A stretch of 64,000 nucleotides of DNA from a phage. A program made the position numbers and the translations under genes. This document shows, piece after piece, positions 49,684 through 50,499 of the stretch. Location of the stretch: sequence record PZ402301.1, one strand, 5' to 3'. Each line of letters opens with the position of its first letter. The first letter of the stretch is position 1. The notes beneath the pieces were generated by a model. That model worked only from the letters and a program-made list of their open reading frames with translations. It had not been told where the DNA came from and made no database searches.

Positions 49684-49971
49684 TTACAAAAGATTTTTAG
49701 CAATAATCTTGAGATGTGCCGCAGAAATGTGTTTAGCTTTAAACAACGCAGTTTCTTCAGCAGGAGAGATAACGATTGTAGCACCATCCTTTTTAGCAGA
49801 CCACCCATCACCTAGGTAAACAGTACCTTTGATTTCTTCGCCATCAACCAAACTAATCATTGGTTTACCTTCTCGTCCTTTATTTGCTTTAATAACTTCA
49901 GAAGTAAGAGTAGCTTCAGTAATAGTAGAAACCGGGGTAGTTTTTGTAGTAAACTCTTTGAAAGTTTTCAT
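49684..49971 (-). CDS. ipI: Internal protein I (capsid-packaged anti-restriction protein)
   Basis: 95 aa; MKTFKEFTTKTTPVSTITEATLTSEVIKANKGREGKPMISLVDGEEIKG... matches T4 IPI. Confidence 0.9.
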   Translation of the reverse strand: MKTFKEFTTKTTPVSTITEATLTSEVIKANKGREGKPMISLVDGEEIKGTVYLGDGWSAKKDGATIVISPAEETALFKAKHISAAHLKIIAKNLL

Positions 49972-49984
49972 TTTATTTTCCTAA

Positions 49985-50043
49985 TTAATTTTGATGAGGT
50001 AATAGTATCACTACCTCATCAGCGTGTAAACAACTTTGTGAAA
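49985..50043 (-). promoter_or_regulatory. T4-type early promoter upstream of ipI
   Basis: ttgatgaggtaatagtatcactacctcatcagcgtgtaaacaactttgtgaaattatttt. Confidence 0.5.
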
Positions 50044-50499
50044 TTATTTTAAATCATCTGCCCAATCAAGTTTAAGAGGCTCTTTGTATTCACGATCTAA
50101 TACGACCGGAATTTGTACATCACCGCTAAATGATAAGGGCCCAACATTATAAGACAATGTTATATGCGGTGTGTAATCATCAAAATCATGTGTAGCACCT
50201 AGTGCCCGCGCATACATGTGTCGACAGCGCAGATATTCAGAATCTAGCACAAGTACAAGAGTCGATCCATCTTGTGTTTTCCATACTTCTAAATGTCCAG
50301 AAGAAGCTACTTCAAAACTTCCACTCGATGGAACATATGGAACATTTATTCTTGAATAACATATGGTCGAATGAATTTTTTCTCTAGGAACTGGATTAGG
50401 AACACGTAAAGAGCGCTGGAGTTCTTCCAGCGCATCAAGTGTTAATTCTGAAAACTTAGCTGCTACATAAAGACCCGTTGAAAAGTCTTTAAATTCCAT
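50044..50499 (-). CDS. 57B: gp57B (in T4 this protein is the anti-CBASS nuclease Acb1)
   Basis: 151 aa ORF directly upstream of 57A as in T4 (152 aa); functional note is from literature, not from sequence. Confidence 0.8.

What the first reader, a model, noticed from the sequence alone, without database searches (positions are those of the whole stretch)
49684..50499. Anti-defence genes embedded in this window (IPI, gp57B/Acb1, candidate Vs.4/Acb2)
IPI (anti-GmrSD, capsid-packaged) and gp57B (in T4 the anti-CBASS nuclease Acb1) are recognisable by sequence and position. By gene order, ORF 37654..37920 is a positional candidate for Vs.4/Acb2 but this is not verified by sequence. Together with imm, rI, the glucosyltransferases and the variable nrdC-rI and e.x regions, much of the early block is host-interaction cargo.
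Basis: partly seen in the sequence, partly recalled or inferred. Interest (0 to 1): 0.35.

Follow-up and report, generated by a model that had tools for sequence, protein, structure and literature searches.

The report
Known T4 anti-defence genes: IPI, Acb1, Acb2
This window comes from a T4-like phage and carries near-identical copies of three well-studied T4 genes that disarm bacterial immunity (IPI against the GmrSD restriction enzyme, Acb1 and Acb2 against CBASS signalling), so the finding is correct but ordinary.

Summary
The observation and the interpretation both hold. The window is a Tequatrovirus genome segment, about 98.9% identical at nucleotide level to Shigella phage SH-1.

- ORF 49684..49971(-) is ipI. 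It matches T4 IPI at 93/95 residues, and its mature 76 residues are identical to the solved IPI* structure 2JUB.
- ORF 50044..50499(-) is 57B/Acb1. It matches T4 at 150/151 residues and keeps the HxT/HxT catalytic tetrad, the four base-stacking aromatic residues and the adenine-reading Glu.
It matches T4 at 85/88 residues and keeps every published cGAMP-binding and hexamer-interface residue.

All three exceed their Pfam gathering scores. Their functions are inferred from T4 experiments and were not tested in this phage. Everything here is already known, so interest is low.

- T4 ipII and ipIII are absent. A T2-type IpIV sits at 39527..40000.
- An unnamed 157-aa ORF at 45051..45524 has a capsid-targeting-like N-terminus and a late-promoter box.
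- The second glucosyltransferase is the T2/T6-type ba-gt, not T4 b-gt.
- ipI is bracketed by two promoter/stem-loop (PeSL) repeats, as it is in T4.

The parts
49684..49971 (-). ipI: internal protein I precursor (95 aa). Propeptide is residues 1-19, ending in the gp21 cleavage motif I-T-E|A. Mature IPI* (76 aa) is the injected inhibitor of the CT596-type GmrSD type IV restriction enzyme.
   Evidence: Mature part is 76/76 identical to PDB 2JUB. The two substitutions relative to T4 (S9T, T10K) lie in the propeptide.
50044..50499 (-). 57B = acb1: 2H-phosphoesterase that cleaves CBASS cyclic di- and trinucleotide signals (151 aa).
   Evidence: H43/T45/H112/T114, Y11, W73, F106, W146 and E140 are all present; these are T4 positions minus 1. 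The start codon overlaps the 57A stop (TAATG).
37654..37920 (-). vs.4 = acb2: hexameric cyclic-nucleotide sponge (88 aa).
   Evidence: (phrog_717). Y8, H11, T12, K23, L29, F33, A66, A73, S74, A77, R79 and F82 are all present. The differences from T4 are E13D, E14D and G17S. The ORF overlaps the vs.5 stop by 8 nt, and its own stop overlaps the vs.3 start (TAATG).
49966..50044 (-). PeSL cassette upstream of ipI: early promoter TTTACA-17-TACTAT (TG-extended) with a 13-bp stem-loop across the -10 box.
   Evidence: (-17.4 kcal/mol, z -3.7). The promoter consensus matches the one given in PMC4122927.
49602..49678 (-). Second PeSL cassette, downstream of ipI and upstream of trna.4. It is a direct repeat of the first (80-84% identity, 364-366 nt spacing).
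   Evidence: The same pair flanks ipI in T4.
39527..40000 (-). IpIV-type internal virion protein (157 aa) between vs.8 and denV. N-terminus is MKTYQEFITE|A. T4 ipII and ipIII are absent.
   Evidence: phrog_3155; DUF7412; 99.4% to T2 and to PP01 'IpIV internal head protein'.
45051..45524 (-). Unnamed 157-aa ORF between e.8 and rnaC, absent from T4: a candidate additional internal (injected) protein. N-terminus is MKSYAQFLNE|A.
   Evidence: (phrog_2280, unknown function). The capsid-targeting positions Y4, F7, L8 and E10 are met. The predicted mature part has pI 9.5.
45561..45568 (-). TATAAATA late-promoter box 37 nt upstream of the candidate Ip ORF, directly after the rnaC terminator hairpin.
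52141..52965 (-). Gene 2: DNA-end protector, an injected protein that shields the genome ends from RecBCD.
   Evidence: 99.3% to T4 gp2. Function is taken from the T4 record annotation and PMC3012670.
320..1168 (-). ba-gt: beta-glucosyl-HMC-alpha-glucosyltransferase (T2/T6 type), in place of T4 b-gt.
   Evidence: no b-gt hit; phrog_842, E 9.5e-90.
12525..13727 (-). a-gt: alpha-glucosyltransferase. It makes the glucosyl-hmC DNA that GmrSD targets and that IPI* protects.
   Evidence: (91% to T4).
1159..1899 (-). Gene 42: dCMP hydroxymethylase, the source of hmC.
   Evidence: (95.5% to T4).

Best explanation
The window is part of a T4-like (Tequatrovirus) genome. It carries functional orthologues of three experimentally characterised T4 counter-defence genes.

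(1) ipI encodes a 95-aa precursor. Its N-terminal propeptide targets it to the prohead core. The gp21 protease removes 19 residues after I-T-E. About 360 copies of the 76-aa IPI* are injected with the DNA and inhibit the CT596/Eco94-type GmrSD type IV restriction enzyme, which would otherwise cut glucosyl-hmC DNA.

(2) 57B encodes Acb1, a metal-independent 2H phosphoesterase. [quoted passage not shown]

(3) vs.4 encodes Acb2, a hexamer that binds three cyclic dinucleotides at dimer interfaces (Kd about 30 nM for cGAMP) and keeps them away from CBASS effectors.

Shown here: sequence identity, intact reading frames, conservation of every published functional residue, T4-like gene order, and promoter and Shine-Dalgarno signals. 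Inferred from T4 work: the biochemical activities and the phenotypes.
For: - Identity to T4 proteins: 93/95, 150/151 and 85/88.
- Direct matches to the solved structures 2JUB, 7T26 and 7UQ2.
- Pfam families Acb1, IPI_T4 and Acb2_Tad1_hairpin all score well above their gathering cutoffs.
- Acb1 residues Y12, H44, T46, W74, F107, H113, T115, E141 and W147 (PMC9117128) are all present at position minus 1.
- Vs.4 residues Y8, H11, K23, R79 and F82, the hexamer residues L29, F33, A66, A73 and A77, and the mutant sites T12 and S74 (PMC10097602) are all present in the sequence. The three substitutions (positions 13, 14, 17) fall outside that list.
- vs.4 is stated to be acb2 in PMC12657218.
- The IPI propeptide keeps the L/I-x-E cleavage motif (PMC9026906).
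- IPI inhibition of GmrSD is documented in PMC4437046 and PMC12373910.
- Genes for hmC and its glucosylation are present (42, a-gt, ba-gt), so the DNA substrate of GmrSD is expected.
- A T4-type early promoter and a Shine-Dalgarno sequence precede ipI. vs.4 and 57B are translationally coupled to their neighbours.
Against: Nothing in the sequence argues against this. The limits are as follows.
- No activity was measured for this phage.
- Vs.4 has three substitutions (E13D, E14D, G17S) next to H11 and T12. They are conservative, and 18 phage records carry a copy at least 99% identical to this one, but their effect on affinity has not been measured.
- 57B lacks the first of T4's two Met codons (ATG to ATA), so the protein is one residue shorter.
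- IPI* is narrow in range. It blocks CT596/Eco94-type GmrSD but not the UTI89, ECOR21 or ECOR17 variants, so 'anti-GmrSD' applies to one subtype only.
- This phage probably makes T2/T6-style gentiobiosyl-hmC rather than T4-style beta-glucosyl-hmC, and IPI has not been studied in that setting.
Confidence: 0.93

Rival explanations
1. gp57B is mainly an RNA-repair enzyme or 2'-5' RNA ligase (LigT-like 2H enzyme), as RefSeq and PHROGs label it, and its anti-CBASS activity is incidental.
For: RefSeq annotates T4 57B and many orthologues as 'RNA ligase'. phrog_755 is labelled 'RNA ligase'. The fold is 2H phosphoesterase.
Against: The label comes from fold-family transfer, not from an experiment. T4 gp57B was isolated by activity-guided fractionation as the cGAMP-cleaving enzyme. 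T4 with acb1 deleted loses that activity and was tested against CBASS operons in plaque assays (PMC9117128). The nucleobase-stacking residues and the adenine-specific residue of the cyclic-nucleotide pocket are conserved here. Pfam places the protein in the dedicated Acb1 family.
Confidence: 0.04
2. The genes are intact but give no benefit in this phage's hosts, or are a net cost. For example, Acb2 acts mainly as a trigger of Panoptes-type guard systems, and IPI meets no cognate GmrSD.
For: [quoted passage not shown] Each Ip blocks only one GmrSD subtype (PMC12373910). IPI occurs in only 291 phage records, against 1234 for Vs.4 and 1472 for Acb1.
Against: All three reading frames are intact with no relaxed-constraint signature: the substitutions are few and conservative, and the mature IPI is identical to T4's. 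Acb1 and Vs.4 are retained across more than 1200 Straboviridae records. This reading concerns ecological pay-off, not mechanism, so it adds to the main explanation rather than replacing it.
Confidence: 0.03

Closest known systems
Phage T4 Acb1 (gp57B, NP_049750) and Erwinia phage FBB1 Acb1 (PDB 7T26/7T27)
   Same: 150/151 identical to T4. The HxT/HxT tetrad, aromatic clamp, E141 equivalent and C-terminal lid are all present. Same position downstream of 57A.
   Different: One residue shorter at the N-terminus (the first ATG of T4's ATGATG is ATA here), and V51I (151-aa numbering; V52 in T4).
Phage T4 Vs.4 / Acb2 (PDB 7UQ2); more distantly Pseudomonas phage PaMx33 Acb2 (PDB 8H2J)
   Same: 85/88 identical to T4. 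All ligand-binding and hexamer-interface residues are conserved. Same position between vs.5 and vs.3.
   Different: E13D, E14D and G17S. vs.5 upstream is 73 aa rather than 58 aa and overlaps the vs.4 start, whereas T4 has a 36-nt gap there.
Phage T4 IPI / IPI* (PDB 2JUB)
   Same: The mature 76-aa inhibitor is identical. The propeptide has the I-T-E cleavage site. Same locus between 57B and trna.4, flanked by the same PeSL repeats.
   Different: Two propeptide substitutions (S9T, T10K). The genomic background has ba-gt instead of b-gt and lacks ipII and ipIII.
T2/PP01 IpIV internal head protein
   Same: ORF 39527..40000 is 99.4% identical and has a canonical capsid-targeting sequence.
   Different: No target is known for IpIV. 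It lies on the vs.8 side of denV, whereas T4 ipII and ipIII lie between denV and e.

Membership tests
Acb1 (Pfam PF23474; anti-CBASS 2H phosphoesterase) | Profile match above the curated threshold over the full domain | tested here: met
   201.2 bits against a cutoff of 27, covering profile positions 1-144 of 144. PDB 7T26 matches at E 5.6e-62.
Acb1 (Pfam PF23474; anti-CBASS 2H phosphoesterase) | Catalytic HxT/HxT tetrad (T4 H44, T46, H113, T115) | tested here: met
   H43-S-T45 and H112-I-T114 in the 151-aa protein. Residue list from PMC9117128.
Acb1 (Pfam PF23474; anti-CBASS 2H phosphoesterase) | Base-stacking aromatics Y12, W74, F107, W147, adenine-reading E141, and the C-terminal lid | tested here: met
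   Y11, W73, F106, W146 and E140 are present. The C-terminal residues are identical to T4.
Acb1 (Pfam PF23474; anti-CBASS 2H phosphoesterase) | [quoted passage not shown] | not testable with these tools
   Requires enzyme and plaque assays. Inferred from 99% identity to the assayed T4 protein.
Acb2 / Vs.4 cyclic-nucleotide sponge (Pfam PF24729, PHROG 717) | Profile match above the curated threshold | tested here: met
   70.6 bits against a cutoff of 27. phrog_717 at E 3.8e-32. PDB 7UQ2 at E 9e-56.
Acb2 / Vs.4 cyclic-nucleotide sponge (Pfam PF24729, PHROG 717) | cGAMP-contacting residues Y8, H11, K23, R79, F82, plus S74 and T12 | tested here: met
   All are present in the translated sequence. 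Residue list from PMC10097602. Y8 and K23 also align with the PaMx33 Acb2 Tyr and Lys.
Acb2 / Vs.4 cyclic-nucleotide sponge (Pfam PF24729, PHROG 717) | Hexamer-interface residues L29, F33, A66, A73, A77 | tested here: met
   All are present (sequence).
Acb2 / Vs.4 cyclic-nucleotide sponge (Pfam PF24729, PHROG 717) | Forms a hexamer and binds cyclic dinucleotides with nanomolar affinity | not testable with these tools
   Requires ITC and AUC. Inferred from 97% identity.
IPI (Pfam PF11634; T4 nuclease inhibitor) | Mature inhibitor domain | tested here: met
   Residues 20-95 are identical to PDB 2JUB. Pfam score is 180.1 bits against a cutoff of 25.
IPI (Pfam PF11634; T4 nuclease inhibitor) | N-terminal propeptide with a gp21 cleavage motif (L/I-x-E) that releases the mature protein at Ala20 | tested here: met
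   MKTFKEFTTKTTPVSTITE|A. Motif from PMC9026906.
IPI (Pfam PF11634; T4 nuclease inhibitor) | Packaged in the capsid, injected, and inhibits CT596/Eco94 GmrSD | not testable with these tools
   Requires virion proteomics and plating on GmrSD hosts. Known for the identical T4 protein.
T-even internal proteins (capsid-targeting-sequence proteins), considered for ORF 45051..45524 | Capsid-targeting sequence: aromatic at position 4 and Phe at 7 (targeting), L/I at 8 and Glu at 10 (processing) | tested here: met
   MKSYAQFLNE|A. The pattern is conserved in diverged homologues: MKSYAEF..LTE in Mosigvirus SF and MKFKEFLIE in Klebsiella phage K6. Critical positions from PMC9026906. Caveat: the scan motif had to be widened at positions 3 and 6 to include this ORF.
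T-even internal proteins (capsid-targeting-sequence proteins), considered for ORF 45051..45524 | Late expression and basic character, as for the other Ips | tested here: met
   TATAAATA box at 45561-45568. The predicted mature part has pI 9.5, against 9.0 for IPI* and 9.1 for IpIV.
T-even internal proteins (capsid-targeting-sequence proteins), considered for ORF 45051..45524 | Present in virions and processed by gp21 | not testable with these tools
   Requires virion mass spectrometry.

The most novel reading that the evidence does not exclude
The unnamed 157-aa ORF at 45051..45524 may be a so-far unnamed injected internal protein of T-even phages that inhibits a host defence, most plausibly another type IV (GmrSD-like) restriction variant. 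It is annotated 'hypothetical' in the 25 sampled records of the 512 that carry it, and its family, phrog_2280, has no assigned function. Together with IPI and IpIV it would give this phage a three-member Ip set different from T4's IPI/IPII/IPIII. I could not check whether the early T-even ip-locus literature (Repoila et al. 1994) already names this family.
Probability: 0.3. Interest if true: 0.4.

Novelty: already known. Interest (0 to 1): 0.1.

Why it matters
For annotation, these three ORFs should be labelled IPI (GmrSD inhibitor), Acb1 and Acb2. Most related GenBank records still call them 'hypothetical protein', 'internal virion protein' or 'RNA ligase'.

For host-range prediction or phage-therapy use, the gene set makes testable predictions:
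- resistance to CT596/Eco94-type GmrSD;
- resistance to CBASS systems that signal with adenine-containing cyclic di- or trinucleotides;
- sensitivity to Panoptes-type guards that sense Acb2;
- possible sensitivity to the ECOR21- and ECOR17-type GmrSD variants that T4 counters with Ip2 and Ip3, which this phage lacks.

No new biology is revealed.

Tried and rejected
- I looked for a structural analogue of the candidate Ip ORF 45051..45524. The single-sequence AlphaFold2 model is all-helical with only moderate confidence (pLDDT 73.7, pTM 0.42). Foldseek against the PDB gave nothing below E 0.6, and phmmer against PDB sequences gave nothing. No functional lead came of it.
- phmmer of IpIV against the PDB returned only chance-level hits.
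- Pfam scans of 18 further ORFs (seven in the vs and trna regions flanking the three genes, the rest non-T4 or diverged) found only DUFs, a macro domain (Tk.4), a GIY-YIG domain, and one sub-threshold hit to T7 gp5.9. None could be called an anti-defence gene.
- I tried to read Repoila 1994, Bair 2007 and Rifat 2008 to learn whether the phrog_2280 family is already a named Ip. None of the three is held.
- An Rfam scan of the whole window found only the eight tRNAs.
- I considered that 57B might be mis-started or truncated. The cause is a single G-to-A change that removes the first of two adjacent Met codons, so this was rejected.
- I did not use the large protein-database searches, because identity of 97-99% to characterised proteins made them unnecessary.

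Full report
**What is there.** The window is a segment of a T4-like myovirus (Tequatrovirus). The 1.4 kb around the finding is 98.9% identical to Shigella phage SH-1, 98.8% to SH-2 and IME339, and 98.6% to the slur phages. A tblastn of 106 T4 proteins from gene 61.1 to gene 4 places the window at roughly T4 map positions 23-88 kb, with T4 gene order.

**IPI.**
- ORF 49684..49971 (95 aa) is 93/95 identical to T4 IPI.
- Residues 20-95 are identical to the 76-residue chain of PDB 2JUB, the NMR structure of mature IPI*.
- It scores 180 bits against Pfam PF11634 'Nuclease inhibitor from bacteriophage T4'.
- Both differences from T4 (S9T, T10K) lie in the 19-residue propeptide. The propeptide still ends in I-T-E|A, which is the L/I-x-E motif cut by the gp21 prohead protease (PMC9026906).
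- In T4, about 360 copies of IPI* are packaged and injected. [quoted passage not shown]
- The inhibitor is subtype-specific. Ip1, Ip2 and Ip3 each block a different GmrSD variant with no cross-protection (PMC12373910).
- The substrate of GmrSD, glucosyl-hmC DNA, is expected in this phage. Gene 42 (95.5% to T4), a-gt (91%) and a T2/T6-type beta-glucosyl-HMC-alpha-glucosyltransferase are all present.

**Acb1.**
- ORF 50044..50499 (151 aa) is 150/151 identical to T4 gp57B.
- It matches the Erwinia phage FBB1 Acb1 structure 7T26 at E 5.6e-62 and scores 201 bits against Pfam PF23474 'Anti-CBASS protein Acb1'.
- Hobbs et al. identified T4 gene 57B as Acb1. They defined the HxT/HxT tetrad (H44, T46, H113, T115), the stacking residues Y12, W74, F107 and W147, and the adenine-specific E141 (PMC9117128).
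- All nine residues are present here at position minus 1.
- The one-residue offset has a simple cause. T4's ATGATG start is ATAATG here. The same G-to-A change turns the overlapping 57A stop codon from TGA into TAA.
- The 'RNA ligase' label in RefSeq and PHROGs is a fold-family transfer, not an experimental result.

**Acb2.**
It is 85/88 identical to T4 Vs.4.
- It matches PDB 7UQ2 at E 9e-56, scores 70.6 bits against Pfam PF24729, and belongs to PHROG 717, the family Jenson et al. used for Vs.4 homologues.
- Jenson et al. listed Y8, F82, H11, K23 and R79 as cGAMP contacts; L29, F33, A66, A73 and A77 as hexamer-interface residues; and T12 and S74 as sites of loss-of-function mutations. All are present in the translated sequence.
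- The three substitutions (E13D, E14D, G17S) are outside that list.
- vs.4 is explicitly equated with acb2 in PMC12657218. That paper also shows that T4 Acb2 binds 2',3'-c-di-AMP and is the trigger for the Panoptes guard system.
- vs.4 sits in a tightly packed early operon. It overlaps the vs.5 stop by 8 nt, and its own stop overlaps the vs.3 start.

**Context of ipI.**
- ipI is bracketed by two roughly 79-nt direct repeats, at 49602-49678 and 49966-50044.
- Each repeat holds a T4-type early promoter, TTTACA-17-TACTAT, and a stem-loop across the -10 box.
- These features match the PeSL promoter/stem-loop cassettes, and the TTTACW-N17-TAYWAT consensus, described for T4-type phages as mediators of modular gene shuffling (PMC4122927). 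The same pair flanks ipI in T4.
- This fits IPI being the patchy member of the three. It occurs in 291 of 50,697 phage records, against 1234 for Vs.4 and 1472 for Acb1.

- T4 b-gt is absent and is replaced by ba-gt at 320..1168.
- T4 ipII and ipIII are absent. These are now known to inhibit the ECOR21- and ECOR17-type GmrSD variants.
- Instead there is a T2-type IpIV at 39527..40000 (99.4% to T2 and PP01).
- A motif scan of all six frames for a capsid-targeting-like N-terminus returns exactly three ORFs: IPI, IpIV and an unnamed 157-aa ORF at 45051..45524.
- Several features of that third ORF fit an internal protein:
  - Y4, F7, L8 and E10 are the positions shown to matter for targeting and processing.
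  - The N-terminal pattern is conserved in homologues down to 43% identity.
  - A TATAAATA late-promoter box lies 37 nt upstream.
  - The predicted mature part is basic, pI 9.5, like IPI* and IpIV.
- The ORF is 'hypothetical' in all 25 sampled records of the 512 phage records that carry it. It has no Pfam family and no PDB match by sequence or predicted fold.
- This is only a candidate. I could not check whether the older ip-locus literature already names it.
- gp2, the injected DNA-end protector against RecBCD, is also in the window.

**Verdict.** Everything the finding claims is already known biology of T4, transferred by near-identity. It is useful for annotation and host-range prediction but not surprising. 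Interest is 0.1. The only mildly novel thread is the candidate extra internal protein.

Noticed in passing
window 45051-45568 (-): An unnamed 157-aa ORF between e.8 and rnaC, absent from T4. It has a capsid-targeting-like N-terminus (MKSYAQFLNE|A), a TATAAATA late-promoter box 37 nt upstream, and a basic predicted mature part (pI 9.5). It is 'hypothetical' in all 25 sampled records of the 512 phage records carrying it, and its family phrog_2280 has no assigned function. It is a candidate additional injected internal protein. No structural analogue was found.
   Followed up: partly
window 39527-40000 (-): A T2/PP01-type IpIV internal protein (DUF7412) lies between vs.8 and denV, while T4 ipII and ipIII are absent. 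The phage's set of injected proteins therefore differs from T4's. It probably lacks the Ip2 and Ip3 activities against ECOR21- and ECOR17-type GmrSD.
   Followed up: partly
window 46530-47990: The tRNA cluster has 8 tRNAs: Arg, Asn, Tyr, Met(cat), Ser, Gly, Leu, Gln. The close relative vB_EcoM_P8 has 10. tRNA-Thr is reduced to a 16-nt remnant (47131-47146), and a 161-aa ORF (46622..47107, phrog_16521) sits in its place. tRNA-Pro is replaced by a 216-aa segB-like GIY-YIG homing endonuclease (47248..47898). No record among the 50,697 phage genomes covers 80% or more of this arrangement; the best covers 73%.
   Followed up: partly
window 320-1168 (-): The glucosyltransferase next to gene 42 is the T2/T6-type beta-glucosyl-HMC-alpha-glucosyltransferase (phrog_842, Pfam TAGT), not T4 b-gt. 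This predicts gentiobiosyl-type hmC modification combined with a T4-type IPI.
   Followed up: partly
window 49602-49678 and 49966-50044: Two roughly 79-nt direct repeats bracket ipI. Each holds an early promoter (TTTACA-17-TACTAT) and a stem-loop, matching the PeSL cassettes described for T4-type phages. The same pair flanks ipI in T4.
   Followed up: yes
window 48229-48753 (-) and 49040-49453 (-): A 174-aa ORF (phrog_2290, unknown function, no Pfam hit) lies between tRNA-Gln and trna.2 and is absent from T4. The neighbouring trna.3 homologue is only 55% identical to T4's. These are variable cargo next to the ipI cassette, with no functional clue.
   Followed up: no
window 21850-22059 (-): A 69-aa acidic ORF in the position of T4 gene 49.3 gives a sub-threshold Pfam hit to the T7 gp5.9 RecBCD inhibitor (20.3 bits against a cutoff of 24.5, over 19 residues only). 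This is probably chance.
   Followed up: no
window 20948-21394 (-): The pin (PinA, Lon protease inhibitor) homologue ends at 148 aa rather than 161 aa. An in-frame stop follows ...SFSDRAF, and the C-terminal tail differs from T4's.
   Followed up: partly
window 35492-35971 (-): The Tk.4 macro-domain protein is only 58% identical to T4 Tk.4, although its neighbours are 93-99% identical. It is a fast-diverging ADP-ribose-related gene and may be relevant to host interaction.
   Followed up: no
window 45649-45911 (-): ARAGORN's 'tRNA-???' at 45648-45743 is the 5' part of the T4 rnaC (species 1 RNA) homologue (97.9% identity, 45649-45788). rnaD lies at 45796-45911 (88%). A 116-aa ORF (45911..46261) lies between rnaD and tRNA-Arg, where T4 has no gene.
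   Followed up: partly
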